From NCBI RefSeq assembly GCF_963921235.1, contig NC_086108.1, positions 73,100,001 to 73,164,000 on the forward strand: a stretch of DNA of 64,000 nt. The letters are read 5' to 3'. Positions within the stretch are counted from its first letter, which is position 1; every line of letters starts with the position of its first letter. The position numbers and the translations under genes were made by a program. Source of the DNA: Mobula hypostoma (Eukaryota). The notes under the pieces are model-generated. The model made no database searches. It was not told where the DNA came from and was given only the letters and a program-made list of their open reading frames with translations. Positions 18,513 through 63,445 of this stretch are shown piece by piece.

Positions 18513-18650
18513 AAACAACAGGAATTCTGCAGATGCTGGAAATTCAAGCAACATACATCAAAGTTGCTGGTGAACGCAGCAGGCCAAGCAGCATCTATAG
18601 GAAGAGGCGCAGTCGACGTTTCAGGCCGAGACCCTTCGTCAGGACTTCGT
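18513..18650 (-). mobile_element. Young 138-bp hammerhead-bearing retroposon (Penelope-derived-like) with 15-bp TSD
   Basis: Flanked by identical caggggaagcatggt at 18498-18512 and 18651-18665; homologous to other copies in the window. Confidence 0.9.
18610..18646 (-). ncRNA. Minimal type I hammerhead ribozyme motif
   Basis: Minus strand reads AGUC-CUGACGA-AGG(GUCUCGG)CCU-GAAA-CG-UC^GACU: both core boxes, stem I AGUC/GACU, stem II AGG/CCU, palindromic ACGU in place of stem III, GUC cleavage triplet. Confidence 0.75.
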
Positions 18651-18698
18651 CAGGGGAAGCATGGTTATGGTTGGAACGTACTTGGACTATTGTGGAGA

Positions 18699-19001
18699 CA
18701 CAAGCGGGACTGCAGATGTTGGAGATCTGGAGCAACACACTAGGGATATTGCATGCAGTCTGTCTGCCACACTATGTGTTAAGCTAGAGAGGCAGCAGAA
18801 AAGATGCACAACAATCAGATGGCAGCAGGAACTCATTCATATACGAAATGGAAGGAATCACCAAAGTTTCAGGTCTCCTGATGCAGGGTTTCATCCTGAA
18901 CGGTCACCAGTTCCTTTCTCCACACAGATGCTGCTAGACCCACTGAGCCTCACCAGCATCTTGTTTTATGCTCCAGATTCCAGCATCTGAAATCCCTTGT
19001 G
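18699..19001. mobile_element. Palindromic (inverted-end) older member of the hammerhead-repeat family
   Basis: ~40-bp imperfect terminal inverted repeats (cacaagcgggactgcagatgttggagatctggagca / tgctccagattccagcatctgaaatcccttgtg); degenerate core ctgatgcagggtttcatcctgaacggtc at 18878-18905. Confidence 0.7.
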
Positions 19002-19002
19002 C

Positions 19003-19440
19003 ATCACAAAGATGTTGGCTGGAAAAGAGGGATTAAGATATAAGGAGAGATTGTATAGGCTTGGACTGTTTTCCCTGCAGCAAAGGAGGCTGAGAGTCAC
19101 CTTATGGAATTATAGACTCATGAGGAGTATAGATACAATGATAGTCACAGTCAATTGTTTTTCCAGGGTAGGGGAGTCTAAAGGGGAAAGACATAGGTTT
19201 ATAATAAAAGGGGAAATCTCAAAGGGGCAGTCTTTTCCCCACAGACAGTGACAGGTATATGAAATGAACTGCCAGAGGAAGCGGTAGAGGTAGGTACAAT
19301 TAATACATTGAAATGGGCACATGGAAAGGGAAGATTTAGTGGGATAGAGACCAACTGGGACTAGCTTAGGTGGACATATTGGTCAGCAAGGATGAATTGA
19401 GCGAAATGGCCCGTTTCTATGCTCTATAACTCAGTGACTC
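19003..19440 (+). mobile_element. CR1 3' fragment
   Basis: GLRYKERLYRLGLFSLQQRRLR; CR1-type 3' UTR. Confidence 0.85.
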
Positions 19441-20384
19441 TTCTTGTTGAGTTCTGAATATCTCTGCAAACCATTTCCTTGGAGCACCCTTTACTACTCT
19501 GACTTCTCACGTGCTTCTTTAGAAACTGAATGGCATGAAGAACCAAGAGGACACTTAACACCATTCACAATGGATCACCAAAGCTCGGCACCATAGCCCT
19601 TCAGATAAATCATGCCATGCCAATGTACTTGGATCTCATCGATAGCACATTATGTATCAGGGCATTGTATCCATACATTTCACTTCAACTCACTTTGAAT
19701 GATTATCAATCAGTACGGTGACATTTTCTCATTAACTAGGTAACAAATGCCACTGAAGCTCATTAACGTTGTGTGCTACTGAACTTTACAAGAGAAAGAT
19801 AATATTGAATTGTGCTGAAACATTTATGTTCTGCTTTATGATTGATGTCTCCAGCTGATTTGGATCCAGCAGATTCTTATAGATTCTCCTTGGAGCAGAT
19901 CCCCCCAAAAATGTGTAGGAAACTTCTAGACCCAACAGTTGTCAAGCCTAGGACTGTTTTTTTATTTCCACTCCTAATCCTCCAACATGCTCAAGTATGG
20001 TGTATCATCCATTGCAAGTACTCTGGCAATGAATCAACAGAGTTCTGAATAAGCTCAGTTACTAATCTACCACGCATGCTCTCTTTCAGAGAGAGAAATA
20101 GAAAAGCAACAGCTGTAGGGGGCAAGGTCCTTTGATGAGGATTGTTGTTTGGTTAATCAAAAAGAAAACATCCCATAAAAACACTAACTTGCAACCATAA
20201 CATAGAGCAAGATAAGATGATCTATGGCAAATAGGACTATTAAAACTTCTGAATATGATTCCTAGTAAGACTTGCATATAATTACTAATCATGTGTTGAC
20301 ATTTTCCAGGCTATGCATAGTTTCTATCAAATACAGGAATCATCTGGCCAATGATTATGTATTAAAACATGTTATTCTAACCTT

Positions 20385-20900
20385 GTGTAAATTACAAATG
20401 AGGCCACATTTAAAATATTTGTGTAATTTCTGGCCCCTTCTTTTTAAAAGATACTAACGCTTTGAAGTGGGTTCAGAGTAGAGTGTTGAAGATCCTCTGG
20501 GAGAGAGGCTATTTTGAAGTCAGGGTCCTCGGTTTCAAAAAGAGCTGAGGTTCAGCTAATTAACTATTTCTGAAAGGAGCTGGATAAATATTGGCCTGAA
20601 AGGCTGAAGTCTTTAATACAAGAGGACAGTCGAAGGGAAGGCCTAATCCAAGCCTCTATGGTGAAGTGCACTGGCTGCAATGCAAGTAGAAACAAACTAT
20701 TTGGCATTAACCTTTGAGCAGAAACCTAATCTATACAGAACTGGAGGCAGTGGATTGAAAGAAACATTTTGCTCCATAGCATAATGTGCATATTGAACAA
20801 ATTCCAAATGAAAACAACTCAGGTTCAGCCAATCCACTCCTATGTAAGGGAGTTGGATAAGTACTTGTTTGGAAGAAACATTAAAAGTCACATCATAACT
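20385..20900 (+). mobile_element. Very decayed CR1-like 3' fragment
   Basis: LCKLQMRPHLKYLCNFWP resembles the CR1 LYKxLVRPHLEYCVQFWSP motif. Confidence 0.5.
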
Positions 20901-21315
20901 TTAAACTGATTCTGGGCATGGTAGGGCAAGGTTAAATATTCTGCTTAATTATTCTTGGAACCAGAGGGTATTATTCAGAATCTTCCTCAGTAAGGATGTA
21001 TGGATTTAATTTATATATTGTGGAAAGAGCAGGCTTGATGATTGGAAAGACTCCTTCTGGTTCAATGCTTTGATATTTTTGCATCGTTTCCTGCCAATCA
21101 AACACATGGGTGTCAGAACACAGCAGTGAAAAGTAAAGATGACCAGCGTGAGAAAACAAATAACATCTCTCTGAGAGTGACCTTTCCTTCAAACCTGCAG
21201 CCAATCCAAATGGGAAAAATAATTCCAAATGTTGTGAATCATTGGCAGTAAGTTTTATAACTCTCTAATAGCTAAGAAATTGGGCATTGGGAAACAAATG
21301 GGTGCTCAAAACCAC

Positions 21316-21462
21316 TGGAAACAAATATACATCAAATCTGAGGCCACCTGGATTGCTGCATAATTGCACTAAAATTGCTATAGTTTGCCTAAAACAAGCA
21401 ATTTTAGAGCAATTATGCATTAATAATCCAGGTGGCCTCAGATTTGATGTTTATTTATTTCA
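21316..21462. repeat. ~145-bp imperfect palindrome (MITE-like foldback)
   Basis: acatcaaatctgaggccacctggatt (21329-21354) is the exact reverse complement of 21425-21450; inner arms tgcataattgcactaaaattgct / agcaattttagagcaattatgca pair with one mismatch; ~17-nt loop. Confidence 0.95.
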
Positions 21463-22475: not shown

Positions 22476-23009
22476 AAGATAATATGAAAAAACTGAGATG
22501 TGATGTTCTTTAACATAAAAGGAAGAACTATCCATGATCATCATAATGAAATAATACAGCCATGACCTTAATGGAAGCGATAAACAAACTTAAAACAAAT
22601 CAAAGGCGAAATGGTTATTTTAAGCATTAAGGGTGCGAGGAGGAGGGGCTCACTGGTTCATACTTAATCAAGTTAAGAGGATAGTTGAATGGGCTGTGAG
22701 ATCAGTAGATGCCAACAACAATACAAATTATGACTATTGTCTTTAATTAGAGAAGATACAAGAACTTTAAAAAAATGTAGACTGCTTTGAAACTAATGAT
22801 GAATAAGAGGCCTTGGAAAAACTTTCACTGATTATGTCAGAAGATAAGTTTTCCTCCTAATTCAGGGTCCAGTTTGATAGATCTTGGCAAACTGAAATGT
22901 CTGAAAACAAACAAATCCTTAGATTGAGTATATTTATCACAAAAATTGCTGGAGACAAGAAGGAGATTTTTCAGGCAGAGGATTATTATAAAGAATCTCT
23001 GGGAATGAA

Positions 23010-23120
23010 GGTTAACAGTTCATCAGAGAAGGCATTTTTGACCTGAAATATTAACTCTGTTTTGCTTTCCATCCATGCTGCCTGACCTGCTGAATGTTTC
23101 CAGCATTTCCTGTTTTTTTA
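23010..23120 (+). mobile_element. Old relative of the hammerhead-repeat family
   Basis: gacctgaaatattaactctgttttgctttccatccatgctgcctgacctgctgaatgtttccagcattt matches the family 3' part. Confidence 0.7.
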
Positions 23121-29629: not shown

Positions 29630-30932
29630 TAAGGCTGTATCTCACTTACTGTATTTTGAGCAGTTTTGGGCCCCACATCTAAGAAAGGATGTATTGGCAT
29701 CGGAGAGTGTACAGAGTAGGTTCACAAGAATAATCCCAGGAATGAAAGGGTAAATGTATGAGGAGCATTTGATGGCTATACACTTATGCTCACTGAAGCT
29801 TAGAGAATGTGAGGGTATCTTATTGAAACCTATCGGATATTGAAAGCCTGGAATAGAGTGGATGTGGAAAGGATGTTTCCTATAGTGGGGGAGTCTAAGA
29901 CTAGAAACCACAGCCTCAGAATATAAGGAGATCACTTTAGAACAGAGATGAGGAGGAATTTCTTTAGCCAGGGGTGCTGAATCTGTGGAATTCATTGCCA
30001 TAGATGGCAGTGGAAGCTAAGACATTAGGTAAGTGGTGTGCATTTCTGAGAAAAATGAGGAAAATGCAGGACATGTGTATTCCAAAAATGAAGAAATACT
30101 CAAATAGTAAAATAGTACAACTGTGGCTGACATGGGAAGTCAGAGCTATTGTAAAAGCAAACAAAAGGGCATACAACAAAGCAAAAATTAATGGGAGACA
30201 GAGGTCTAGGAAGTTTTTAAAAACCTACAGAGAGTAAATTTTTAAAAAATCATTAGAAGGGAAAAGATGAAATACGAAAGCAAGGTAGCAAATAATATCA
30301 AGGTGGATAGTAAAAGTTTTTTTCAAGTATGTTAAAAATAGAAGAGAATTGGGAGTGGATATAGGACCGCTAGAAAATGAGGCAAGAGAAGTAATAATGG
30401 GGGACAAGGAGATGGCTGATGAACTAAATGAGTATTTTGCATCACCCTTCACTGTGGAAGACACTAGCAGTATGCCTGATGTTGTAGTGTGTGAAGGAAG
30501 AGAAGTGGGTATAGTTACTATTACAAGAGAGAAGCTGCTCAAAAAGCAGAAAGAATTAAAGGGACCCTTTACTCTTTAAGTCACCCAGACCAGATGAACT
30601 GCACCCTAAGGTTCTGAAAGAGGTAACGTTAGAGATTGTGGCAGCATTAGCAATAATCTTTCAAAATTCATTGGACTCTGGCATGGTGCCAGAGGATTGG
30701 AAAATTATAAATGTTACTTCACTCTTTAAGAAAGGAGGAAGGCAGCAGAAATAAAATTATAGATCAGTTAGTCTGACCTCAGTGGTTAGGAAGACGTTAG
30801 AGTCAAATGTTACAGGGAGAAAGCGGGAGAATGGGCTGAGAGAGATAATAAATCAGCCATGATGGAATGAAGGAGTAAATTCTGTGAGCTTAATGGCCTA
30901 ACTGCTCCTATGTCTTATGGTCTCATGGTCTG
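29630..30932 (+). mobile_element. Composite CR1: a 3' fragment with an upstream ORF2 segment (~30030-30805) embedded in it
   Basis: 29630-30030 is C-terminal ORF2; 30030-30805 is paralogous to 700-1450 (GVDIGPLENEAREVIMGDKEMADELNEYFAS); 30806-30932 is 3' UTR with tatgtcttatggtctcatggtct tail. Confidence 0.88.
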
Positions 30933-32371
30933 ATGGATGTAAAATGTCTTGGATGTTGCAAGATGTGTAGGATTTTACCAATTATCTGTCAATTTATCTA
31001 TTGGACTTGCATAGATTCTGCTTCAGAATTAGAATTATTCCAACCACATTATGAAGACAGTAACCATAAAGAAGCAGAATTGCTCCCTTTGGTCCATCGA
31101 GTCAACTCCACCATTCCTTCATGGCTGAACCCTTTCAATCTTATTCTTCTGCCTTCTCCCTGCAACCTTTCACCACCATACTAATCAAGAGCCTATCAAC
31201 CTCTGTTTTAAATAATATGTATGCGCAACCCATTCACAACACTGAAAACAGAATGGGACTTGCACTGAGCATCTGGGGTAAGTGAAGATTTTTCACCATC
31301 CAAACTGTACAACACTACCACAATCAATCAAGATCCACTGCAAGATCTTAGGAAATGTGTCTCACTTTCTATGTCTTGGGAGTCCTATTTGCAGAAGCAT
31401 TTCCCATGATTTTCAATGTGCCTGCACACTCTCTAACTGAGTGAGGAAAAGAAGGTTTGAAGATTAAGGCATCAATATGAGTATAAACTCATTGTGTAAC
31501 AGCGATCCCCACCCTTTTATACGTTTTGGAGTCATAAGCAATTTACAGTTATTGACTCAAAATCTGATAAAGTTTTTGAATTGCATCTCAGCAAAGCCCT
31601 TGAAATCTGCATGCTTGACACTGGGCTGTTGAACTGAGCATTCCGCGCTAAGTTCTTTAGATTTCAAGTTATCAGAAAAAATTCTTCCACAAATGGCATC
31701 GAATGTCTCACACTACCCACTGAAAATCTTACAGAGGCAATGTATTATGAATCCCCATAGTACTCTCCAGTCAGCTCAGAGTCCACTGATTTGGAGTTGA
31801 ATTAAATTGTTCCTAACCCGGATGAAGTACCTCAGAAGAAAGGTGGGATAACAAGTTGTCATTAACGTCTGAGATGAATCTAGAGTTGATTTTTCATTTA
31901 GTTTCCCAAAGATCAGTCTACAGATTGAGAAAGGATATACGTTGAAATATCGTTCATGATTGCCATGCCAATAACAATGCTAATAACCACGTCAGAGGCC
32001 TGATTTAAGGTGATCAATACCGGTATTGAAGAAACAGAAATGTGATCAATGACTTTGCTCATGTCGAGCCCAAAATTAGACCAAAAATTCTTTTAATGTA
32101 CTACAGTACATTTTACTAACACAATAATAGAACATTGCTTCAGAAAATCAATCAAAATTATCCTTTCATTAAATGAAAAATCGAGATATCATATAATATT
32201 TCTTTGTAATCTAGAAAGCAATTGTGTCTGAAAGATTTGTGACATTTGTCTCATTCTGCTGGAATGTGCTTGACCAAAACTATCACCCATGCCCACACCC
32301 TCTCAAGCACCATACACCATTACACCATCTCCACCTGCTAACCTGCACCTACCCCCCAAACCCCCTGATAT

Positions 32372-32519: not shown

Positions 32520-34570
32520 AAGAATCAGAATCAGAATCCTTTATTATCGCCAAGTATGTGGACACATACAGGGAATTTGATGCCGGTTTCCCTGAGCTCT
32601 CGCTGTACAGAATCAAAAAGCAAACAAAACAATAGTGCAAATAATCGTGAACTATATACAATGAAGTATACCTGTGTATGTACAGGTGGACTTGGTTTAT
32701 AATAGACTAAAATTCAAGTGTTCATAAGACTGATGGCATAAGGAAAGAAACTGTCCTTGTACCTATTTGTCCTGGCATACAGTGATCTAAAGCACCTACC
32801 AGAAGGAAAGAGTTGAAACAGGTGATGTCCAGGGTGTGATGGGTCTACAATGATGCTGCTTGCTCGCTTCCTGACTCTAGATGCGTGTAAGTCCCAGATC
32901 GAGGGCAGCTTCACACCAATAATCCTTTCCACAGCCCTGATGGTTCTTTGGAGTCTATTCTTGTCTTGTTTGGTAGCTGAACCAAACCAGACAGCGATGG
33001 ACGAACAGAGAACAGACTGGATTATTCCTGAATAGAATTGAATCAGCAGCTCCTGAGGCAGGTTGTACTTCCTGAGTTGACGCAGGAAATACAACCTCTG
33101 CTGAGCCTTTTTGATAAGAGTGTCCGCGTTGGATGTCCATTTCAGGTCCTGGGAGATTGTGACACCCAGAAACCTGAAGGTCTCCACAGAAGACACAATA
33201 CTATTGAGTGTAGTGAGTGGGGGGAGTATTGGGGGCTCCTCCTGAAGCCCACTGTCATCTCCACAGTCTTGAGCGTATTTAGCTCCAGATTGTTCTGACG
33301 ACACCAGAGGGCCAGCCGTTCCACCACCCGTCTGTATGCAGACTCATCACCGTCTCGGATAAGGCCAATGACAGTTGTGTTGTCTGCAAACTTCAGGAGT
33401 TTAACAGATGGATCCTGTGAGGTGCAGTCATTAGTGTAAAGGGAGAAGAGCAGTGGGGAGAGCACGCATCCCTGGGGGGCACCAGTACTGATTGTCCGGG
33501 TGCTAGAAATGATGCTCCCCAGCCTCACTTGCTGCACCCTGTCAGTCAGGAAGCTTGTGATCCACTGACAGATGGCGGGGGAGACAGTGAGCTGGGTGAG
33601 TTTGGAGTGGAGGATTTCTGGGACGATGGTGTTGAACGCCGAGCTGAAGTCAATAAACAGGACCCTCGCAGAAGTTCCTGGGTTGTCGAGGTGTTGTAGT
33701 ATGTAATGCAGTCCCATGTTGACTGCATCATCCACTGACCTATTTGTCCGATAAGCAAACTGCATGGGGTCCAGCAGGGGGCCTGCGATGTCCTTCAGGT
33801 GAGCCAACACTAGTCTCTCAAAGGACTTCATGACCACACATGTCAAGGCAACAGGCCTGTAGTCATTTAGTCCCTTGATAGTGGGTTTCTTAGGGACTTG
33901 AATGATAATGGAGCGCTTGAAGCAATGAGGGACTTCACACAGCTGCAGTGATCTATTGAAGATCCGTGTGTAGATGGGGGCCAGCTGATCAGTGCAGATC
34001 TTCAGGCAGGAGGGCGACACACCGTCTAGGCCTGGCGCTTTCCTGGTCTTCTGCCTCCGGAACAGCTGACTCACCTCCCTCTTGCAGATCCTGAGTGCAG
34101 GTACAAGAGGGTTGAAGTGAAAGGGGGTAGGGGGAGTAGTTTTTGTAATGTGGGGTGAGAAAGCGGATACTGAGATGTCGGGGTGATGGATGATGGGGGT
34201 TGCAGGTAGGTCTGTGTTTTGGCTGGGGGGTATGAAGGTGTCGAATCTACAATAAAACTTGTTCAGATCGTCAGCCAGTTGATGGTTCTCAATAGCCTGG
34301 GGGAATGGTTTCTTGTAGTTGGTGATCTCTTGGAGCCCCTTCCACACTGACACTGGGTTGTTGTTTGAAAACCTGTTTTGCAGTTTTCCAATGTAGCGCT
34401 TCTTCGCTGCCTTAATCTCCCTGGCTCGATCGTACAGAATCCTGTCCCCTCTTCTGTACGCCTCCTCCTTCTCCCGACGAAGCTGCCTGAGTTGTGATGT
34501 GAACCAGGGCTTGCTATTGTTGAATGTGCAGAAGGTTTTTGTTGGAATGCACATGTCTTCACAAAAACTG
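32520..34570 (-). mobile_element. Young 5'-truncated Rex1/Babar LINE with (TTCTGA)n tail
   Basis: Tail agaatcagaatcagaatc at 32521-32538; long RT ORF; GC-richer than its flanks. Confidence 0.93.
32714..34570 (-). pseudogene. Reverse transcriptase ORF of the Rex1/Babar element (one frameshift near 33235; catalytic FADD reads FADN)
   Basis: ORFs 33142-34593 and 32714-33304: [74 protein letters not shown]. Confidence 0.92.
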
Positions 34571-35264
34571 AACAAGGCCTTAATAATATCCACTGTGCTA
34601 GCAGCTGTTATAATGCCTTTTAGTTGCTTTAAAACACTAATATTACAACAATTATGAAATAATATAGGTTAAGTAATACAAATTATAGCTAAAAATTTTC
34701 TGAAGACAGCTTCTTGGTAACTGGAAGTTGCAGATTGAGTGGATAATCAAGGGTCACCACTGAGTTTTAAGTGTTCCACAGAAAGTGAGCTCATCATGTG
34801 AGCATAGAAGATCTTTGATAATATCTGGTGAATTTCATCTTTATTTTTAAGTGGAACTACACAGGAAGAAGAAGTTGTATATTTCAAGAACTAGAGAACA
34901 GATGCCAAAGTGGCAAGTACTGTACCAGAAGGATGCCACCCAATACACTTCAACAAATTCATTGCAAGAAAATAATATATGGTGCTAGAATAGAGATGGC
35001 AGACATTGCAAGGAATATCAGATCTGACAGTAGAACTGTACATGTTTTAAGCATTGACATTTTTTGAAGGTTTATACATTGACTGCAGCATCTTTTTTGA
35101 ACTGTTTTGATAAAGTGTCCATAACGCAAGATCAGAACTCAAGAATCAGATTTAGATTTATCATCATTGGCATGTGTCGTGACATTTGTTACAGATGTTG
35201 CTTAACTCTTTGCATTTGTTGTGCTATAGGTTGCTTGTCCGGCTGTCTCCTTATCACTGGCATC

Positions 35265-45925: not shown

Positions 45926-46045
45926 TGTCCTGAAGAAGGGTCTCGGCCTGAAATGTCAATTGTTTATTCATTTCCATAGACACTGCCTCTCTGCTGAGTT
46001 CCTCCAGAATTTTTTATGTGATGCTTTGGATTTCAAGCATCTGCC
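45926..46045 (+). mobile_element. Hammerhead-repeat copy nested in an old CR1 3' UTR
   Basis: gtc-ctgaaga-agggtctcggcct-gaaa-tg-tc followed by the family tail; CR1 UTR on both sides (gaggccagtgtagatt | gccatgatcacc). Confidence 0.85.
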
Positions 46046-48815: not shown

Positions 48816-49011
48816 TATCAGAATTAGAATGAGAATCAGTATAATATCACCAGTATATGTCATAAAATTTGTTGTTATATATATATATATCTATAAAACA
48901 AATAAATTAACTAAGTAGTGCAAAAAGCAAGGGAAAATACTGAAGAAGTGTTCATGAAATGCTGCATGTGTCTTCAGGCTCCTGTGACTCCACCTCGAGT
49001 CTGGTTCTGCA

Positions 49012-49545
49012 GTGCAGAAAGGAGGGTGGAAGAATAGGACAGCGATAGTAATGGGGAACTTGATAGTTAGAGGTACAGAAAGGAGGTTCTGTGGTCGTGA
49101 CAGAGACTCCCGGATGGTTTGTTGCCTCCCGGGTGCCAGGGTCAGGGATGTCTCTGATCGCGTGCACAGCATTCTGAAGTGGGAGGGTGATCAGCCAGAT
49201 GTCATGGTGCATATCGGTACCAATGACGTAGGAAGAAAGAGTGAGGAGGTCCTGAAGAGTGAGTATAGACAGCTTGGTAGGAAGTTAAAAAGCAGGACCT
49301 TGAGGGTGGTAATCTCAGGATTGCTACCTGTGCCACGTGCTAGTGAGGGTAGGAATAGGATGCTCTGGCGGATGAACACATGGCTGAGGAACTGGTGTAG
49401 GGGCAGGGTTTCAGATTTCAGGATCATTGGGACCTCTTCTGGGGCAGGTGGGACTTGTACAACAGAGACGGGTTACACCTGAACTACAAGGGGACCAAAA
49501 TCATTGCAGGGAGGTTTGTTAGTGCTTTTGGGGAAGGTTTAGACT
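49012..49545 (+). pseudogene. CR1 ORF1p SGNH/GDSL esterase domain
   Basis: AIVMGNLIVRG (block I, GDS degenerate), CLPGA (block II), VHIGTND (block III), and after a frameshift RDGLHLN (DxxH, ~49465-49485). Confidence 0.9.
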
Positions 49546-49659
49546 AGATTTGCTGGGGATGGGAACCAGAGTGGCAGAGCAGATACTGGAGCGGGGGTGA
49601 ATATAAATGATGTTAAAAGTTCATGCAAAGTCACAAATGGAAGGGTTGTGTGTTGTGAT

Positions 49660-52545
49660 AATAATCTTCTGAGGTGTGTCTTTCTCAATGCAAGGAGTAT
49701 TGTGGGGAAGGCTGACGAGCTGAGGGCATGGATTGACACATGGAATTACGACATTATAGCCATTAGTGAAACTTGGCTACAGGAGGGGCAGGACTGGCAG
49801 CTTAATGTTTCAGGGTTCTGATGTTTCTGATGTAATAGAGGCAGAGGAATGAAGGGTTGGGGGGCGGGTGGCATTGCTAGTCACGGAAAATGTTACAGCA
49901 GTGCTCAGACAGGACAGGCTAGAGGGCTTGTCTACCGAGACCATATGGGTGGAGCTGAGAAACAGGAAAGGTATGACCACATTAATGGGGTTGTATTATA
50001 GACCACCCAATAGTCAGTGAGAATTGGAGGAGCAAATCTGCAGAGAGATAGCAGACAACTGCAGGAAACAAAATTGTGGTGGTAGGGGATTTTAATTTTC
50101 CACATATTGATTGGGACTCCCATACTGTTAGGGGTCTAGATGGGTTAGAGTTTGTAAAATGTGTTCAGGAAAGTTTTCTAAATCAATATATAGAGGTACC
50201 AACTAGAGAGGACGCAATATTAGATCTCCTATTAGGAAACGAGTTAGGATAGGTGACGGAAGTGTGTGTAGAGGAATACCTTTTTTCCAGTAATCATAAC
50301 ACCATTAGTTTCAGCTTGATCATGGATAAAGATAGATCTGGTCTTCGGGCTGAGGTTCTAAACTGGAAAAAGGCCAAATTTGAAGAAATGAGAAAGGATC
50401 TAAAAAGCGTGGATTGGGACAGGTTGTTCTCTGGCAAGGATGTGATTGGCCTTCAAAGGAGAAATTTTGAGAGTGCAGAGTTTGTATGTTCCTTTCAGAA
50501 TAAGAATAAGGAACCTTCTTTCTCAAGGGATATTGCAACTCTGATAAAGAAGAAAAGAGAGATGCATGACATGTATAGGAAACGGAGCAAGTAAAGTGCT
50601 TGAGGAGTATAAAAAGTGCAAAAAATACTTAAGAAAGAAATCAGGAGGGCAAAAAGAAGACATGAGGTTGCTTTGGCAGTCAAGGTGAAGGATAATCCAA
50701 AGAGCCTCTATAGGTATATTAAGAGGAAAAGGATAGTAAGGGATAAAATTGGTCCTCTTGAAGATCGGAGTGGTCAGCTATGTATGGAACCAAAAGAAAT
50801 GGGGGAGATCTTAAATGGTTTTTTTTGCGTCTGAATTTACTAAGGAAACTGGCATGGAGTCAATGGAAATAAGGCAAACAAGTAGTGAGGTCGTGGAACC
50901 TATACAGATTGAAGAGGAGGAGGTGCTTGCCATCTTGAGGCAAATCAGAGTAGATAATTCCCCAGGACCTGACAGGGTATTCCCTCGGACCTTGAAGGAG
51001 ACTAGTGTTGAAATTGCAGGGACCCTGGCAGCTATATTTAAATGTCAGTTTCTACGGGTGAGTTGCTGGAGGATTGGAGGATAGCTCATGTTGTTCCGTT
51101 GTTTAAAAAAGGCTCTAAAAGTAATCTGGGAAATTATAGGCCGGTAAGTTTGACGTCGGTAATAGGTAAATTTTTGGAAGGAGTACTAAGTGATACGATC
51201 TACAAGTATTTGGATAGACAGGGACTTATAAGGGAAAGTCAACATGGCTACGTGCGTGGTAGGTCATGTTTGACCGATCTATTGGAGCTTTTCGAGGAGG
51301 TTACCAGGAGAGTGGATGAAGGGAAGGCAGTGGATGTTGTCTACATGGACTTCAGTAAGGCCTTTGACAAGGTCCCGCATGGGAGGTTAGTTCGGAAGAT
51401 TCAGTCGCTAGGTATACATAGAGAGGTTGTAAATTGGATTAGACATTGGCTCAATGGAAGAAGCCAGAGAGTGGTAGTGGAGGATTACTTCTCTGAGTGG
51501 AGGCCTGTGACTAGTGGTGTGCTGCAGGGATCAGTGCTGAGTCCATTGTTATTTGTCATCTATATCAATGATCTGGATGATAATGTGGTAAGTTGGATCA
51601 GCAAATATGCTGATGATACAAAGACTGGAGGTGTAGTAGACAGTGAGGAAGGTTTTCAGAGCCTGCAGAGGGACTTGGACCAGCTGGGAAAATGGGCTGA
51701 AAAATGGCAGATGGAGTTTAATACTGACAAGTGTGAGGTATTCCGATTGCGTCACCTCTGTTCTGGGCCAGCACCTAATTAATTAGCTTGTTTATTTTGG
51801 CTTTTTTCTTAAAGATGTACTGGGTGCGTCCTGGCCAGTGCTGCACCCCTGCATGCTTTGCGGCAATGTATTGGTCCACAGCCTGGAGTTTGGGGACCAC
51901 TGTAGTAGAAGAGGGATCTGGGAATACAGATACAAAAATTCCCTAAAAGTGGTGTCACAGGTAGATACGGTCATAAAGAGAGCTTTTGGTACATTGGCCT
52001 TTATAAATCAAAGTATTGAGTATAAGAGCTGGAATGTTATGATGAGGTTGTATAAGGCATTGGTGATGCCGAATCTGGAGTATCGTGTTCAGTTTTGGTC
52101 ACCAAATTACAGGAAGGATATAAATAAGGTTGAAAGAGTGCAGAGAAGGTTTACAAGGATGTTGCTGGGACTTGAGAAACTGAGTTACAGAGAAAGGTTG
52201 GATAGGTTAGGACTTTATTCCCTGGAGCGTAGAAGAATGAGGGGAGATTTGATAGAGGTAAATAAAATTACGATTTTATAGATAGAGTGAATGCAAGCAG
52301 GCTTTTACCACTGAGGCTATGGGAGAAAAGAACCGGAGGACATGGGTTAAGGGTGAAGGGGGAAAAGTTTAAAGGGAACATCAGGGGGGGTTTCTTCACA
52401 CAGAGAGTGGTGGGAGTGTGGAATGAGTTGCCAGATGAAGTGGTAAATGCGAGCTCACTTCTAACATTTAAGAAAACCTTGGACAGGTACATGGATGAGA
52501 GGTGTATGGAAGAATATGGTCCACGTGCAGGTCCATGGGACTAGG
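49660..52545 (+). pseudogene. CR1 ORF2p, AP-endonuclease + reverse transcriptase
   Basis: LRCVFLNARSIVGK, IIAISETWL, VGDFNFP, GNYRPVSLTS, YMDFSKAFDKVPH, QGSVLSPLLFVIYINDL, KYADDTK, FFTQRVVGVWNELP. Confidence 0.95.
51741..51902. mobile_element. Single end of a Charlie-like hAT element inside CR1 ORF2
   Basis: Ends gcctggagtttggggaccactg (rc CAGTGGTCCCCAAAC); shares catgctttgcggc with the hAT end at ~4849-4861; interrupts CR1 after DKCEV. Confidence 0.8.
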
Positions 52546-54714
52546 CAGAAAAACGGTTCAGCACAGACAAGAAGGTCCAAAAGGCCTCTTTTCTGTGCTG
52601 TAATGTTCTATGGTTCTGGGTGATGGGGGTGGGTAGGTCCTTAATGATGGATGCTGCCTTTTGGAGGCATTGCTTTTTGAAGGTGCCCTGGATGTTGGGG
52701 AGGCTAGTGCCCATGATGGAGCTGATAGAGTTCACAACTTTCTGCAGCTTTTTTCAATCCCATGTAGTGACACCCCCCCCATACAAGATGGTGATGTAAC
52801 CAGTTAGAATGACTCTCCGCGGTACATCTGTAGAAATTTGCCAGAGTCTTTGGTGACATAATAATTCTCCTCAAATTCCTAATGAAATATAGCCACTGAC
52901 ATGCCTTCTTTTTTAGTTGCATCAATATGTTGGGTCCTGGATAGATCTTCAGAGAAGTTGACACTCAGGAACTTGAAACTACTAACTCTTTCCACTGCTG
53001 ATCCTTTGATTTTCCCTTCCTGAAGTCCACAGTCAATTCCTTGACCTTACTGACATTGAGTGCAATGTTGTTGCTGTGAGACCACTCAATCAGCTGATTT
53101 ATCTCACACCTGTACACCTCCTCATCACCGTCTGAAATTCTGTCAACGATAGTTGTGTTATCAGCAACTTTATAGATGGTGCCTAGCCACACAGTTGTGG
53201 GTGCAGAGAGAGGAGGACTGTGTACTAAGCACACATCCTTGAGGTGCGTCAGTGTTGGTAGTCAGCAAGGAGGAGATGTTATTTCCTAACCACGTCCATT
53301 GTAGATCTATTGTGGTGATAAGCCAATTGCAGCGAGTCCAGGCCCTTGCTTAGGTAGGAGTTGATTCTAACCATGACCAACCTCTCAAAGCATTTCATCA
53401 CAGTAGATGTGAGTGCCACTGGGATATAATTACTGAGGCAGCTCACCATGCTCTTCTTGGGCACTGGTATGATTGTCGCCCTTTTGAAGTAGGTGGGAAG
53501 CTCCAACTGCAGCAGTGAGAGATTAAAGATGTCCTTGAACCCTACCACTAGGTGGGTGGCACAGGTTTTCAGAGCCCCACCAGGTACACCATCAAGACCT
53601 GATGTCTTGCAAGGGTTCTCCCTCCTGCGAAATTTCTAACGTCAGCCTCCGAGACAGAAAGCATTGGGTCACCGGATGCTGTGGGGATGATTAACATTAG
53701 CTAATCAATACCTTTTTATATATCAAATCAGAATATATCAATATTTATTTACAATCAGTATTTAAGTTTGATACTGAATGAGGGAAGGAAGCTTCATAAG
53801 TTTTAAATTAGATAATCGGGTTCTGAGAGGCTGTTTATCATTGATTATTTTTTTAGATTTCCATTAAAACAACTGCTGTATTTCACTCACAAAAGTTCCA
53901 TATTCTTAAATTTTACAGCAAGAACAATGCAGGGTTGAAATTATCTTAAAATTCCAGAGTTTATATTAATCATAGCAACAAATGGAAAACAGTGTAAGAG
54001 GGGCAGAACCACACTGGTAGTAATATCTGGATCGACATTTTTTTTACTCCAGATGTGCTAACAGCAGATGTTTCTGCTGTTACAAATTCCAGTCTGTAAT
54101 CGGGATAAAGTAACTCTGAGATTCTGTCTGATTAGGGAATTAAAGTTTATCGCATCACAGTGGCATTTTAATTACCCCATTTCCAATTCCAGATCCAATA
54201 CCACCATTTCAAAGATATTTGAAGAAAAATTACGTCCTAAATTACTGACATTATTCTGTCGTTAAGCAAGTAAAACATTTTTGAATTGAATTTGAAGAAG
54301 TAGGTGAAGTTAAATATTTGAGTTAGGGAGCCCCTGCTCTGTTTTCTTAATAACTCCCAAATGGTTTTACCAATTTTTTAGATGACCAACTCAGATGGAA
54401 TGCAAGTCTCTTTTATTCTGTTTGAATTATGGCCTGGAAATTGGTCAATGCCGATTTTTTTTGGCATATTATTATGGGTCACCCTATACTACTTATGAAA
54501 CTTACATGAAGAGGAGAACTTCAAATGTAAAGTTCATGGAAGAACTTTCAGGTTTTCCAGTGTAACTCTATTGTTTTCAGCATGGCATTCCCTTGCTGAG
54601 GTGGATCAGCAGGTGGAATAACTGCAAACACTGTATAAAGGGTCATACTGTTTTTACAACACTGGGGGCAGTTGTGATGAATGAGATGATGGATAGTAGG
54701 AAATTGCTTTGATT

Positions 54715-54970
54715 TTTATTTTATTTTTATTACAGTGTGGAATTGGCCCTACCAGCCTAACGAGTCTCAATGCCCAGCCAGCTACCAATTTAACATTCGA
54801 CAACTTGCAATGACCAATTAGCCTACCAACCAGTACGTCATTGGATTATGGGAAGAAACTGGAGGAAACACACGCTGACCATAGGGAGAACATGAAAACT
54901 CCTTTTATAGGACTCTGAATTGAACTTTGAACTCCGAACGTCCTGATCTGTAATAGCATTGAACTGTGGC
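54715..54970 (-). mobile_element. HE1/V-domain-like SINE
   Basis: Aligns with 16848-17072 and 40305-40510. Confidence 0.8.
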
Positions 54971-55380: not shown

Positions 55381-56567
55381 GTATTTAAATCTTTTTATTA
55401 TTTATTATTGAAAATCACCAAAAACATTAAAGTAATCAAATCAACATATCAATATGTACAATAAGAGTTAAACTATCGAATAACTGATTAACCAAGCTAA
55501 ACAGTATACAAATAATAATAAGAAAAAAAACAAAATGTTAAAACTTTTTTTTTGGAAAAAAGAAAGAAGGAAAAAAGAACCCCTACTAACTAAAACAAAC
55601 AAAAAAACCTCTACTAACCAAAAAAAAAACGAGAAATAAAATCTATTGGGAGCACAACCTCGAAGCTATATGCCATACAAGCTTCCATCAAAGAAAAACA
55701 TCAATCCACCAACCAAATCCAATTACACAAGAAACAGAAGGGGACCATCTTAATTAACTCAAATCAAATGATAATAGTGGACAAAAGAACCCCACCTTTT
55801 CTCAAAGTCAAATCGAGGATCAGAAGTTCGACTTCAAATTTTCTCCAAACTAAGACATAACATTACCTGAGAGAACCATTGTATCAAAGTGGGAGCAGAG
55901 GCATCTTTCCATTCTAATAAAATAGCCCTTCTGACCAATAATGTGACAAATGCAATTACATATTGGTCTGATATAGAAATACCGTGAATATATTGAGGAA
56001 TTATACTGAACAAAACTATCAATTTATTAGGTTGTAAATTAATTTTTTAAGCTTTAGGAATTACAGAGAAAAGAGATTTCCAAAACTGTTTCAATACAGA
56101 ACACGACCAAAACATATGTGTCAATGTAGCTGTCTCAGATTTACATCTATCACACTGACTATCAACATTAGGAAATATTTTAGACAGTCTCTCCTTTGTC
56201 AAATAATAATAATTGATGTCTTCTGAGAAATTAGTAACTAAATGTTCTCTCTCATACTCACATTTCTTGCAATATCTTCAGGTCAGACATTTCTTACAAG
56301 AATATTTAAGTAAATTTCCATATATACAAGATCCTGACCTGTTAGACATTATTTTAAAAATGAATCCTTTAGTGAAAGGTTTTATTGGGAAAAATTATAA
56401 TTTACAATTTACTATTACAACAGTATAATTATCTTTTACTTAAGATTAAGCAAGATTGGGAAAGAGAGCTTAACATGACCTTGATAACAGAGGATTGTTG
56501 TGAATTTTGAAGTTGGTTAACTCTTCTTCGATTTGTGCCAGTCACTCTCTTAATCAATTTAAAATTG
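55381..56567 (-). mobile_element. L1-clade LINE 3' fragment with a 5' inversion and ~15-bp TSD
   Basis: Minus strand: YYLTKERLSKIFPNVDSQCDRCKSETATLTHMFWSC (CCHC knuckle), RRAILLEWK, T-rich 3' UTR and A-rich end. Plus strand 56212-56572: FLQYLQVRHF..WEREL..QFKIVH. Flanks ttcatctccaatatt (55366-55380) and ttcatctcccatatt (56568-56582). Confidence 0.9.
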
Positions 56568-56768
56568 TTCATCTCCCATATTAATGTTACTCTTACCCTA
56601 CCTCTGGTACGAGGCTGAAACAAAGTCTGAAGTAGAATCATTTTGGTGGAACCCAAACTACACGAACATCAAAAGATTCTTGGGGTGTGGACACACTGTC
56701 AATGATACCTTGCATCACTGCTGCTTGTTGAAAGCACAATGTGGCATTTGGCTAGAAAATATCAGTCC

Positions 56769-57787
56769 TGATTTTTATTGAATGGGACATTTCTGGTCAA
56801 TATTGCATAATGGCAGATAGATGTTAGTGTTGGAGCAAAACTGGAACAACTTTAAGGATATAGCATCTAATTCTAGAACCCGAATCTTCAGCATCTTCCA
56901 CTGGGATATTGATGAAGCCCCTTTTGTTGCATCTGGTCCTCTCTACAAAGATAGGGTGAATCAAATTAATTGACCACTGGCTTCCTTGTTGCTGGAGCCC
57001 ACAAGAGTGGATCAATCTCTATGCCTTCCTGGCTGAAGGAAGTTGCATATATTTCACTACTACCCTTTCCATTCATGCTGGGCTCTGCCACCATCATCAA
57101 TGACGGGATTTTCATGGATTCTTATTTGACTATTAGCTATGCAATTTTCCACCACCATCAGATGCAACCAGCAAGTTTTGGTCCAAAGTATTTGTTGCAG
57201 AGGCACTTAACACTGGCTCCAACCTTTTACTTCTACTGAGATTCTGTTGTAGCTCCACCAGGACTTCAATTATAAAATATTTGCAATGCAAAAAAAAATC
57301 TCACCTAAAACATGCTCTCTTCTAATTGTTACCATCAGGGAGGAGGTACAGAAGCCTGAAGGCACACACTCTACATTTTAGGAACATCTATTTCCCCTCC
57401 ACCATCAGATTTCCGAATAGACAATAAAACAGCCCATGAGTACTACCTCACTATTTTTTCTCCCTTTGCACTATTTATTTAATTTAATTTTTAATGTTTT
57501 ATATATATATCTCTTATTGTAATTTATAGATTTTCAATGTATTGCACAGTAGGTCTGCCTCAAAACAACAAATTTCATGAGAAATGTCAGTGATTTTTAT
57601 TGAATGGGACATTTCTGGTTAATATTGCACAATGGCAAATAGATGTTAATGTTGGAGCAAAACAGGAACAACTTTGAGGATATAGCATCTAATTCTAGAA
57701 CCCGAATCTTCAGCATCTTCCACTGGGATATTGATGAAGCCCATTGCTTTTGTTGCATCTGGTCCTCTCTACAAAGATAGGGTGAAT
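56769..57787 (+). repeat. ~195-bp direct duplication (56769-56961 and 57591-57787) of an old CR1-like RT remnant
   Basis: Two near-identical copies with a few substitutions and a small indel; minus-strand translation LKIRVLELDAISSKLFLFCSNINIYLPLCNI resembles a CR1-group RT N-terminus. Confidence 0.93.
57310..57593 (+). mobile_element. Rex1/Babar 3' fragment
   Basis: catgctctcttct..ttaccatcagggaggaggtacagaagcctgaaggcacacac is the reverse complement of 11452-11512-type sequence; followed by 3' UTR. Confidence 0.82.
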
Positions 57788-57807
57788 TAATTATTATCAA
57801 TCAATCA

Positions 57808-59158
57808 ATTGCTGGAGTCAATTATAAAAGATGAAATAGCGGCGTATTTGGATAGCAGTAGCAGGAGAGGTCTGAGTCAGCATGGATTTACCAAGGGGAA
57901 ATCATGCTTGACTAATCTTCTGGAATGTTCTGAGGATGTAACTATGAAAATGGACTTGGGAAAGCCAGTGATGTAGTGTACCTGGACTTTCAGAAAGCCT
58001 TTGATAAGGTCCCACATAGGAGGTCAGTGGGCAAAATTAGAGCACATGGTATTGGGGGTAGAGTACTGACATGGATAGAAAATTGGTTGGCAGACAGGAA
58101 ACAAAGAGTAGGGATTAACGGGTCCTTTTCAGAATGGCAGGCAGTGACTAGTGAGGTACCACAAGGCTCGGTGCTGGGACCGCAGCTATTTACAATCTAC
58201 ATTAATGATTTAGATGAAGGAATTAAAAGTAACATTAGTAAAACTTGCAGATGGCACAAAGCTGGGTGGCAGTGTGAAATGTGCAGAGGATGTTGAGATA
58301 ATGCAGGATGACTTAGACAGGTTGGGTGAGTGGGCAGATGCAGTTTAATGTGGATAAATGTGAGGTTATCCACTTTGGTGGCAAGAACAGGAAGGCAGAT
58401 TACTATCTGAATGGTGTCAAGTTAGGAAAAGGGGAAGTACAACGAGATCTGGGTGTCCTTGTTCATCAGTCACTGAAAGTAAGCATACAGTGAAGAAAGC
58501 TAATGGCATGTTGGCCTTCATAACAAGGGGTGTTGAGTATGGGAGCAAAGAGGTCTTTCTGCAGTTGTACAAGGCCCTGGTGAGACCTCACCTGGAGTAT
58601 TGTGTACAGTTTTGGTCTCCAAATTTGAGGAAGGACATTCTTGCTATGTAGGGAGTGCAGCGTAGGTTCACTGGGTTAATTCCAGGGATGGTGGGTATGT
58701 CATATGTTGAAAGATTGGAGCGACTGGGCTTGTATACACTGGAATTTAGAAGGATGAGAGGGGATCTGATTGAAACATATAAGATTATTAAGGGATTGGA
58801 CACACCAGAGACAGGAAACATGTTCCCGATGTTGGGGGAGTCCAGAACTAGAGGCCACAGTTTAAGAATAAGGGGTGGACCATTTAGAATGGAGTTGAGG
58901 AGAAACTTTTTCACACAGTGGGTTGTGGATCTGTGGAATGCTCTGCCTCAGAAGGCAGTGGAGGCCAATTCTCTGGATTCTTTCAAGAAAGAGTTAGAAA
59001 GAGCTCTTAAAGATAGCGGAGTCAAGGGATATGGGGAGAAGGCAGGAACAGGGTACTGATTGTGAATGATCAGCCATGATCACAGTGAATGGCGGTGCTG
59101 GCTCGAAAGGCTGAATGGCCTACTCCTGCACCTATTGTCTATTATCTATTGTCTATTG
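57808..59158 (+). mobile_element. 5'-truncated CR1 (RT to 3' end)
   Basis: YLDFQKAFDKVPH, VPQGSVLGPQLFTIYINDL, RGDLIETYKI; (CTATTGT)n-like tail. Confidence 0.94.
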
Positions 59159-59269: not shown

Positions 59270-59415
59270 CATAGGAGGAAACTAGAGCATCCAACTGAAA
59301 ACCATGCAGTCACAGGGAGAATGTTGATCCTCAGCTGAAGTAGAACAAAAGGTCAGAATTGAATTTGGGTCACTGGAGCTGTGAAGTTGTACCTCTAATA
59401 ACTGTGCCATACTGG
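59270..59415 (-). mobile_element. SINE 5' fragment (V-domain-like family)
   Basis: ggaggaaactagagcatcc..gcagtcacagggagaatgt..cagaattgaatttgggtcactggagctgtg. Confidence 0.7.
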
Positions 59416-61319: not shown

Positions 61320-61590
61320 AGAGTCAAGAGTCATACAGCAAGGAAACAGGCATCTCAGCTCACCAAACATCCATTTACATCAATCCTTATATTATCCTCC
61401 CCAGATTCTCATCACCCTACACAGATGTGCCATGATCCTACATAATATTGTCTATTTACAGTTCACTAGCACACATCTTTTGCACATGAGAGGAAACCAG
61501 AACACCTGGCAGAAGCTCATGGTCACAGGGAGAATGTGCTGACTTCATTCAGACATCACCCAAGATTAGAATTGTCCTAGGTCTCTGGCT
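61320..61590 (-). mobile_element. HE1/V-domain-like SINE with a CR1-type tail
   Basis: gaggaaaccagaacacctggcagaagctcatggtcacagggagaatgtg core; tail gagtcaagagtcatacagcaaggaaacagg. Confidence 0.75.
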
Positions 61591-61594
61591 CCAT

Positions 61595-61632
61595 TAGCCC
61601 TGACGAAGGGTCTCAGCCCGAAACGTCGACTG
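61595..61632 (+). ncRNA. Minimal type I hammerhead ribozyme motif
   Basis: UAGCC-CUGACGA-A-GGG(UCUCAG)CCC-GAAA-CG-UC^GACUG; core intact, stem I has one mismatch. Confidence 0.68.
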
Positions 61633-61695
61633 TACCTCTTCCTTTAGATGCTGCCTGACCTGCTGCGTTCCACCAGCATTTTGTGTGTGTTGGTT
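61595..61695 (+). mobile_element. Hammerhead-repeat copy
   Basis: Near-identical to the reverse complement of 18550-18646. Confidence 0.9.
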
Positions 61696-61699
61696 GAAT

Positions 61700-63285
61700 G
61701 AGTTATTTCCAAGGTTGAGTGGAGCCTATTGGCAACACCAGCAGTTCCAGTAGGCAAGTCCGATAGGTCCGTGGTGATTTTAGGGTCACCATCAACCAGG
61801 TACTGAAAATAGATCAGTACCCTCTGCCCAGGATAGAAGATATCTTTGCAAATCTTTCTGGAGGGAAACACTTCAGCAAAGTGCCCTTAGCTGAGGCCAA
61901 CCTACAGGTGAAGATGCAAGAAGAGACCTTTATTATTATAATCAGCCTAATTTTGCACCCTGCACTCTGGCGAAAAGTTATGGACCAGGTGCTGCAAGGT
62001 TGCCCAGGCACCATCATTGTTGCCAGGAAGGATGAGAAGGAACATCTACAAAATCTCAAGGCTGTGTTAAAAGGATGAGCAGTTTATGGACTCAGAGCAC
62101 AATGCAACAAATGGGAATTCGTCAAATTAAACATGACTTGCTGTGGTCACACCATCAACGAACATGCATTACACAAGTATACTGAGAAAATTCAAGCAGT
62201 GGCGGATGCCCCAAAGACAAAAGACATGTCACAGTTTTGGTCCCTTTTAGAATTTTTCAATTCCTGCCAATTCAATCCACCCCTTGAACACATTACCGCA
62301 GATCAGGAAGAAATGGCAATAGATAAAACAGTGTGGTATGGCTTTCCACAAGGCAAAGGAAATGGTGACATCAGCCACTGTACTCATTCATTGTGATCCA
62401 CATCATCTAGTGATGCCTCGCCTCATAGTACAGGTACAGTCATGTCACATGAGTGATGGATGTGAACACTACATTGCCTTTGCATCAAAATGACACACAG
62501 ATTGACAGAGAGCTCTTGAGTATGGTTTGGGGTGTAAAACTTTTCAACCAGTACTTATCTGGGAGTTTACCCTTATTACCGATCATCAACCACTAGTCTA
62601 CAGTCTACAGAACGGCGTTCCACTAACTGCAGCAACACGAGTGCAGAGCTGGGCTCAGCTTCCTGGAGGTCACAGTTACAAGATCGAGTTCACAAGGACA
62701 GCTAGTCATAGAAATGCTGATGGGTTGTCCTATTTAACCTTGGGAAAGGAAATACCTGAAAAATTTACAAAAGAGAACACTCCTGGTGATATATTCTCCC
62801 GAATACAAATCAAAAAACATATTTTAGCAGAGATGATCGAGAGGGAAACAGGAAAAGACCGCGCACTGACTCCGGTCTACATGGCAACCTAAAATGGCTG
62901 GAATGTGTAGCAGAAGTTCCAGTTCCTCCATTTTTACCAGTGCTGGGATGAACTTGCCTTTGACGTGGTTGCCTTATGTGGCGATTTAGAGTTGTTGTAC
63001 CATCCAAGCTCAGAGCTAAAGTGTTGGAGGAACTATATGCCGGTCATCTAGGTGTGGTCAAAATGAAAGCATTGGCTAAATTTTTGTCTGGTGGCCTGGT
63101 ATAGATCAGCAGATTGAGCAACTTGCCACACACTGTATAAGATCACAAAACATCCAGAAGATGCCAAGAGTAGTGCCTCTCCATCTTTGGGAATGGCCCG
63201 CATTGCCCTGGCAGAGAATTCATGTGGATTTTGTTGGACTATACATAAGCACAAAGTTCTTGGTAGTAGTAGATGCAGCTACAAA
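61700..63285 (+). mobile_element. Decayed Ty3/Gypsy pol (RT, RNase H, integrase N-terminus); no LTR seen
   Basis: DQYPLPRIEDIFANLSGGKHFSK, EKEHLQNLKAVL, FTLITDHQPL, HRNADGLS, VLEELYAGHLGVVKMKALAK, WEWPALPWQRIHVDF, spread across frames. Confidence 0.9.
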
Positions 63286-63289
63286 CTTA

Positions 63290-63445
63290 ACACATCCCTT
63301 TTCTTTCCAGTTCTGATGAACAGCCTTGGCCTGAAACGTAAACTGTTTATTCCCCTCCAGAGATGCAGCCTGACCTGCTGAGTTTCTCCAGCATTTTATG
63401 TGTTACTCTGGATTTCCAGCATCTTCGGAAGTTCCTGTGTTTATT
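63290..63445 (+). mobile_element. Hammerhead-repeat copy
   Basis: Family tail gatgcagcctgacctgctgagtttctccagcatttt..ggatttccagcatct. Confidence 0.88.
63308..63345 (+). ncRNA. Minimal type I hammerhead ribozyme motif (variant)
   Basis: CAGUU-CUGAUGA-acagccuuggccu-GAAA-CG-UA^AACUG; perfect 5-bp stem I, weakened stem II. Confidence 0.55.

What the first reader, a model, noticed from the sequence alone, without database searches (positions are those of the whole stretch)
18513..63445. Dispersed short non-coding retroposon family carrying a minimal hammerhead ribozyme
Seen: about 8 related 100-300 bp repeats (9583, 15152, 18513, 18699, 23010, 45926, 61595, 63290). Four retain stem I-CUGANGA-stem II-GAAA-(C/U)G-UH-stem I' (18610-18646 on the minus strand; 45926-45962, 61595-61632 and 63308-63345 on the plus strand). 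The variable core position differs between copies (C, A, U) while CUGA-GA and GAAA are kept. Established: this is type I hammerhead topology, and minimal versions with a palindromic ACGU in place of stem III occur in Penelope-like elements, where they are thought to cleave as dimers. Inference: no Penelope RT/GIY-YIG ORF is present here, so these may be non-autonomous, ribozyme-bearing, retrozyme/SINE-like elements. If this density is typical, the family would be very abundant genome-wide. Whether it is already described in this lineage cannot be determined from the sequence.
Basis: partly seen in the sequence, partly recalled or inferred. Interest (0 to 1): 0.8.

Follow-up and report, generated by a model that had tools for sequence, protein, structure and literature searches.

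The report
Penelope end-stubs with hammerhead, ray genome
These short repeats are real, pasted-in and mostly decayed copies of what is likely the ribozyme-bearing end of a Penelope-type jumping gene in a ray-like fish, so they are probably a known kind of leftover rather than a new self-spreading ribozyme element.

Summary
The repeat family is real: 8 loci in 64 kb, and 65,263 of 28.3 million contigs of one DNA run align to one copy. Four copies keep the minimal type I hammerhead core, but only 18646-18610 keeps both stems and the ACGU palindrome. That copy has a 14-15-bp target duplication, and a related organism has an apparently empty site. Three loci are head-to-head pairs, and the family has two 3' ends about 33 bp apart. 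These are the published marks of truncated Penelope-like element (PLE) insertions. The copies neither start nor end at the cleavage site and are not tandem, which argues against retrozymes; I found no SINE features. I could not show a physical link to an RT/GIY-YIG frame: none lies in the window and no genome is held. Five of six copies with the 5' core half begin within about 6 nt of it, which may mark an RNA start. The scan has noted this family many times before, in this and other shark or ray genomes. Verdict: new member of a known kind, low interest.

The parts
18513..18650 (-). Youngest copy: hammerhead plus ~100-nt downstream segment with the long (tail-bearing) end; short slip duplication of the first hammerhead bases at its 5' junction
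   Evidence: family depth is confined to 18506-18648
18610..18646 (-). Intact minimal type I hammerhead: 4-bp stem I, CUGACGA, bulged A, 4-bp stem II, GAAA-CGUC, palindromic ACGU; predicted cut after 18615
   Evidence: stem pair probabilities 0.85-0.97; z -0.78, not more stable than shuffles
18498..18512 (.). Target-site duplication, left copy (15/15 identical to 18651-18665)
   Evidence: joint 18498->18653 in one contig of organism B
18651..18665 (.). Target-site duplication, right copy
9566..9694 (+). Decayed copy, core broken, long end; possible degenerate duplication 9552-9565 / 9695-9708 (10 of 14 identical, 9 contiguous)
15156..15338 (.). Old head-to-head pair: 15156-15221(-) and 15248-15338(+); GAAA half only
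   Evidence: (E 0.18 and 2e-16)
18690..19009 (.). Head-to-head pair of another subfamily: 18690-18779(-) and 18876-19009(+), with a damaged core on the + arm
   Evidence: (E 0.06 and 5e-27)
22915..23116 (.). Old head-to-head pair: 22915-23021(-) and 23036-23116(+)
   Evidence: (E 0.13 and 4e-17)
45926..46045 (+). Copy with core letters kept but stem I and palindrome lost
61596..61700 (+). Copy with full core and one stem I mismatch; ends at the short (tail-less) end
63290..63445 (+). Copy with ~20 nt of upstream pyrimidine tract, GUA triplet, broken stem II, long end; sits at the end of a Gypsy-like remnant

Best explanation
The repeats are retro-pasted, mostly decayed stubs that are likely the terminal repeat (pLTR plus tail) of an abundant endonuclease-bearing Penelope-like element of rays, carrying that class's known minimal hammerhead. 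Inferred mechanism: the element's GIY-YIG nicks the target. [quoted passage not shown] It often stops at or near the hammerhead's 5' edge, sometimes restarting to give a head-to-head partner, and repair leaves a 14-15-bp duplication. The ribozyme is inferred to work, if at all, as a dimer in tandem transcripts of master copies; the dispersed stubs decay neutrally. Shown: copies, duplication, apparent empty site, pairs, two 3' ends, decay pattern. Inferred: parent ORF, enzymology, cleavage.
For: 15/15 duplication. One organism-B contig joins 18498 to 18653, a skip of 154 where 153 is expected; the tool could not say whether a letter lies between. 3 of 8 loci are head-to-head pairs. Opposite-strand joints 18513/18546 (7 contigs in X1, 5 in X5) and 18512/18547 (2 and 1) mark two 3' ends 33-35 nt apart; window copy 61596 stops at the short end, and 9566, 18513 and 63290 at the long end. 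These match the inverted pLTR, TSD and optional 30-40-bp tail of EN+ PLEs (PMC3846280, PMC8557442, passages). The long end lies 122 nt from G10.1; in Anolis PAc the ORF begins at stem II, RT starts at +111-118, and uncleaved RNA is the main substrate (PMC11167929, parts 1-2 read). The motif has the bulge before G10.1 and the palindromic 15.2-16.2 of PLE min-HHRs, described as mostly solo or opposite-strand pairs from truncated PLEs (PMC4209133, parts 1-2). The upstream loose-end consensus at 18646 is a shared purine tract (agreement 0.37-0.43, 4 of 4 runs) resembling the extension of copy 63290, so part of the family continues upstream. 4 of the 5 family variants listed within 18610-18646 are CpG transitions, and the fifth also removes a CpG.
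Against: The link rests on architecture and on unverified earlier notes. 5 of 6 copies with the CUGA half begin within about 6 nt of C3, sharper than random truncation would suggest, which also fits a short dedicated template. A clear duplication was found for only 1 of 8 loci, plus 1 degenerate. The inverted partner arms are individually weak hits (E 0.06-0.18). No covariation support in 5 copies (149-340 of 500 shuffles as high).
Confidence: 0.82

Rival explanations
1. A non-autonomous mini-element derived from the pLTR has its own ~135-nt transcript, starting at the hammerhead's 5' edge, and is mobilised in trans by the PLE protein (SINE-like).
For: 5 of 6 window copies start within about 6 nt of C3. 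Loose ends at 18644 and 18645 (186 and 222 contigs in X1, low agreement) rank among the six best-supported places. The 18513 copy is a recent, duplication-bounded 138-bp insertion. pLTR sequences can suffice for mobilisation in trans (PMC3846280 passage).
Against: Copies come from several subfamilies 51-82% alike, one extends upstream, and the loose-end consensus shows a shared upstream tract. No Pol III head. The loose-end ranking is biased because the reference copy itself ends at 18646, and 808 rows were not shown.
Confidence: 0.13
2. A non-LTR retrozyme: tandem units are cut by the hammerhead into monomers or circles that are reverse-transcribed and dispersed.
For: Three single-contig 'goes back' joints (109-119 nt) in X1 show that head-to-tail pairs exist, one of them also in the putative RNA run. 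Retrozymes related to pLTRs are reported in vertebrates, including one chondrichthyan (bioRxiv 10.64898/2026.07.22.740005, parts 1-3 read).
Against: No copy is in a tandem array (0 of 9 TRF rows). Copy ends are about 30 nt upstream and 69-102 nt downstream of the cut site, not at it. The tandem joints are not at the cut site either. Described retrozymes are tandem repeats with canonical hammerheads, while minimal ones are assigned to PLEs (PMC7229834 passages).
Confidence: 0.04
3. The hammerhead resemblance is incidental in an unrelated repeat.
For: Rfam gives no hammerhead hit; folding is no more stable than shuffles.
Against: All 11 core letters, both stems, the bulge and the palindrome are present in one copy; strict descriptor chance 0.033 per window; PLE insertion marks co-occur.
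Confidence: 0.01

Closest known systems
Minimal hammerheads (min-HHR) in pLTRs of metazoan Penelope-like elements (Cervera and De la Pena 2014, PMC4209133)
   Same: Type I, no helix III, bulge before 10.1, palindromic 15.2-16.2, mostly solo or opposite-strand copies, thousands per genome, high variability
   Different: Stem II here is 4 bp (7-8 bp in Schistosoma families). Sharks and rays are not named in the two parts read or in 2 of 3 supplement files searched (file 1 not searchable).
5'-truncated EN+ PLE insertions with TSD, inverted pLTR and optional 30-40-bp tail (PMC3846280, PMC8557442)
   Same: Target duplication, head-to-head partner, two 3' ends about 33 bp apart
   Different: Stubs are only 100-150 bp; duplication is 14-15 bp (8-10 bp in the Adineta examples); 5' ends cluster at the hammerhead edge; no ORF seen here
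Poseidon PAc of Anolis (PMC11167929)
   Same: Copy end about 120 nt past the start of stem II; copies made from uncleaved RNA
   Different: PAc's ORF starts in stem II; no such long frame is seen in these copies; the clade of the ray element was not determined here
Metazoan non-LTR retrozymes (PMC7229834; bioRxiv 10.64898/2026.07.22.740005)
   Same: Non-coding, type I hammerhead, pLTR-related, dispersed monomers occur
   Different: Defined by tandem units with a hammerhead in each; not the case for any of the 8 loci here

Membership tests
PLE minimal hammerhead | CUGANGA and GAAA-N-N-UH core with stems I and II, no helix III | tested here: met
   Complete in 18646-18610; core letters in 4 of 8 loci
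PLE minimal hammerhead | Bulge before G10.1 and palindromic 15.2-16.2 | tested here: met
   Bulged A in 4 of 4, ACGU in 3 of 4
PLE minimal hammerhead | G10.1-C11.1 pair | tested here: inconclusive
   G-C in 1 of 5 copies, G-U in 3; the C variant has 20-74% of the depth in the three genomic runs
PLE minimal hammerhead | Self-cleavage as a dimer | not testable with these tools
   No raw RNA reads offered; needs an in vitro assay
EN+ Penelope-like element | Telomerase-like RT and GIY-YIG ORF joined to the pLTR | tested here: inconclusive
   Absent from the window; genome not held; only unverified notes report it elsewhere in this genome
EN+ Penelope-like element | Target-site duplication | tested here: met
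   15/15 at one locus with an apparent empty site; 1 degenerate; none clear at 6 of 8 loci
EN+ Penelope-like element | Inverted 5'-truncated partner | tested here: met
   3 of 8 loci
EN+ Penelope-like element | Optional 30-40-bp tail | tested here: met
   Ends at 18513 and 18546/7; both end types in the window
EN+ Penelope-like element | Clade (Neptune vs Poseidon) by RT tree or Zn-finger linker | not testable with these tools
   No protein obtained; Neptune is suggested only by earlier notes
Non-LTR retrozyme | Tandem units, each with a hammerhead | tested here: not met
   0 of 8 loci; three single-contig tandem joints exist elsewhere in the genome
Non-LTR retrozyme | Circular or monomer RNA | not testable with these tools
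   Contigs only
SINE | Pol III (tRNA-type) head with A and B boxes | tested here: not met
   0 tRNA genes; one lone A-box-like match and no B box in 8 copies, recalled patterns
SINE | 3' end shared with a LINE, or poly(A)/simple-repeat tail | tested here: not met
   No blastn hit to the window's LINE copies from the repeat body; no such tail in the copies; only this window's LINEs were compared

The most novel reading that the evidence does not exclude
The ~135-nt unit from the hammerhead's 5' edge to the tail is its own transcript and spreads in trans as a Penelope-dependent mini-element in rays: a ribozyme-fronted SINE equivalent of the PLE class, whose ends are set by an RNA start (or splice acceptor) and the RT's internal start site rather than by ribozyme cleavage.
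Probability: 0.13. Interest if true: 0.55.

Novelty: new member of a known kind. Interest (0 to 1): 0.2.

Why it matters
As it most likely stands, it extends PLE minimal hammerheads to rays at very high copy number. I found no paper that describes this family, but Repbase and Dfam could not be consulted. What PLE hammerheads do in vivo is still open, and a young, very abundant family whose ends ignore the cut site but cluster at the ribozyme's front edge is a good statistical handle on where PLE RNA starts and where RT initiates. Single copies such as these are probably inert.

Tried and rejected
Rfam scan: 4 matches at E<=1, none a hammerhead. No whole genome is held. Pattern scans for host DNA carrying a full element: metagenomes 0 and 1 match (the one has non-family flanks); viral contigs 1 and 0 (chance); prokaryote genomes 75 matches, and none of the 76 loci held then extends into the repeat. 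A translated copy used as bait for a read-through GIY-YIG protein gave 1 hit among 5 candidates, 3 hits with no PLE domain, and no usable Atlas hit. No RNA holder was listed for the locus; the putative RNA run covers the family but not this copy's flanks, which is no evidence either way. A stops-as-X six-frame Pfam scan and a second read-laying on copy 63290 gave no result, so very decayed PLE coding remnants and genome-wide core conservation remain untested. The idea that 61596 and 63290 are LTRs of the Gypsy-like remnant between them is rejected: they are 68% alike with different ends. Lunse et al. 2017 was not held and is cited only through the review PMC6765202. PMC12602865 had none of five search terms. 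Supplements of the bioRxiv preprint, which may list chondrichthyan consensus units, are closed.
Full report
Observation. The eight listed repeats are real and related. An HMM built from five copies and rebuilt once finds 8 strong hits (E<1e-15) and 3 weak ones (E 0.06-0.18) at 8 loci; the reversed window yields nothing better than E 8.9. Copies are 51-82% alike, so several subfamilies and ages are present. The hammerhead core letters are at the four places given, with N7 = C, A, C, U. Two pass a strict stem-and-core descriptor that is met 0.033 times per simulated window (300 simulations). Quality differs between copies. Only 18646-18610 forms both stems (pair probabilities 0.85-0.97) and keeps ACGU. 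61596 has a stem I mismatch, 45926 has lost stem I and the palindrome, and 63309 has GUA and a broken stem II. Even the best copy folds no better than shuffles (z -0.78), and in its monomer fold the core pairs with itself. Rfam has no hit. Five aligned copies give no covariation support.

Host and abundance. The window is eukaryotic and full of LINE, DDE transposase and Gypsy-like remnants (the family labels CR1, Rex1, Tc1 and Gypsy are from my own recall of their motifs). A translation of the best copy matches two predicted Mobula proteins at 91-94% and 79% identity, so the host is ray-like. Laying public contigs on 18440-18740 aligned 65,263 of 28,298,499 records in X1, 40,603 of 21,788,257 in X5 (organism B), 13,300 of 20,913,867 in X9 (organism C) and 4,607 of 1,095,021 in a putative RNA run. 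Summed depth is 3-10 million over the repeat against about 8 in the flanks. The tool says this is no copy number; allowing for up to 31-fold overlap of short contigs I infer at least about 10^4 copies. X1 may be the source of the window and is not independent.

Anatomy of insertion. The 18513 copy lies between 15/15 identical direct repeats (18498-18512, 18651-18665). One organism-B contig joins 18498 to 18653, a skip of 154 where a clean empty site predicts 153; the tool could not say whether a letter lies between. Organism C has no depth above the flank level at the upstream end of the copy, but its joint was not among the rows shown. The insertion is therefore likely recent and made by target-primed copying. 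Its 5' junction repeats the first hammerhead bases over a short match to the target, which I read as slippage at the end of the template (inference). Each of the three weak HMM hits lies head-to-head just upstream of a + copy (15156/15248, 18690/18876, 22915/23036). The family has two 3' ends: opposite-strand joints connect 18513 with 18546 (7 contigs in X1, 5 in X5) and 18512 with 18547 (2 and 1). In the window, 61596 stops at the short end, while 9566, 18513 and 63290 run to the long end. Duplication, inverted partner and an optional 30-40-bp tail are the described structure of EN+ PLE insertions (PMC3846280 and PMC8557442, passages). Against this, a clear duplication was found at only 1 of 8 loci.

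Relation of ends to the ribozyme. The predicted cut is after 18615. Copies begin about 30 nt before it and end about 69 or 102 nt after it, so they were not copied from cut-to-cut monomers. [quoted passage not shown] Five of the six copies that keep the CUGA half start within about 6 nt of C3; the sixth carries about 20 nt of pyrimidine tract ending in AG. Only two of these starts are fixed by a duplication, one of them degenerate. Loose ends at 18646 give a purine-tract consensus in 4 of 4 runs (agreement 0.37-0.43), so part of the family continues upstream with shared sequence. The clustering may mark an RNA start, a reading I take from earlier notes. It may instead mark a splice acceptor: in Drosophila virilis an intron ends at the 5' side of helix I (PMC4209133).

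Selection. Within 18610-18646 the family variants listed at 5% or more are four CpG transitions and the 11.1 position; positions near the end of the reference, including N7, were not listed, so the CUGA half is untested. In the window the four copies picked for their core match it 44/44 by construction. The four others match 26/36, against 225/322 in the tail (two of these lack the CUGA half, which lowers the figure). There is no sign of selection on dispersed copies.

The missing link. No Penelope-specific domain was found in 336 of 336 open frames scanned (RVT_1 hits sit in LINE-like frames by my reading) or by motif search. No genome is held, and collection scans and protein baits did not reach a parent. 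Earlier notes on other pieces of this genome report GIY-YIG or RT frames next to a minimal hammerhead; I could not check them. Membership in the PLE class is therefore inferred from architecture.

Comparison. Cervera and De la Pena (PMC4209133, parts 1-2 of 4 read) already describe min-HHRs as massive in metazoan genomes, mostly single or on opposite strands 100-700 bp apart, probably from truncated PLEs, inactive as monomers and weakly active as dimers. Retrozymes are defined by tandem units (PMC7229834 passages; bioRxiv 10.64898/2026.07.22.740005, parts 1-3 of 5), and the preprint also states that most PLE insertions are 5'-truncated with a single terminal repeat. None of the 8 loci is tandem, though three single-contig tandem joints exist elsewhere. 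SINE features were not found. Six paper searches found no description of this ray family; Repbase, Dfam, most subscription papers, one supplement file of PMC4209133 and the preprint's supplements were not seen. PMC6155905 and PMC6765202 were read as passages only.

Verdict. The feature is real, the motif is correctly recognised, and it is of an ordinary kind: likely truncated PLE ends (0.82), a trans-mobilised mini-element (0.13), a retrozyme (0.04). The scan has reported the same family many times. Interest 0.2.

Noticed in passing
window 18512-18649 (-); proteins P0001, P0002: One frame is open across the whole copy (46 aa), and near-identical stretches appear inside two predicted Mobula proteins (a STARD3NL isoform and an uncharacterized protein), both starting just before the hammerhead. 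This suggests exonisation in gene models through a splice acceptor at the ribozyme's front edge.
   Followed up: partly
window 61767-63290: Decayed Gypsy-like pol remnant (weak RT_RNaseH_2 hit, integrase-like words) between two hammerhead copies; copy 63290 appears inserted into it.
   Followed up: partly
window 32717-34668 (-): Young LINE with a 508-aa RT frame and an ALKBH8_N-matching C-terminal frame (Rex1/Babar-like by recall); related fragments near 11466-12187, 15454-15850 and 52545-53635.
   Followed up: no
window 48988-52281 (+): Near full-length CR1-like LINE: GDSL esterase ORF1, endonuclease and RT frames; further fragments near 200-2760, 29640-30940 and 57934-59140.
   Followed up: no
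window 13455-14050: DDE_3 (Tc1-like) transposase remnant next to a 290-bp AG microsatellite.
   Followed up: no
window 16935-17032, 40398-40495, 54799-54896, 59274-59319, 61487-61532: Second dispersed short repeat family (D13/D18), resembling a V-SINE core by recall.
   Followed up: no
window 21318-21461: 37-nt arms, 95% complementary, 70 nt apart: a MITE-like hairpin.
   Followed up: no
window 55830-56670 (-), 56769-56923 and 57591-57745: L1/Tx1-like remnant with a zf-RVT hit; a 155-bp segment is repeated at 95% identity 822 bp apart.
   Followed up: no
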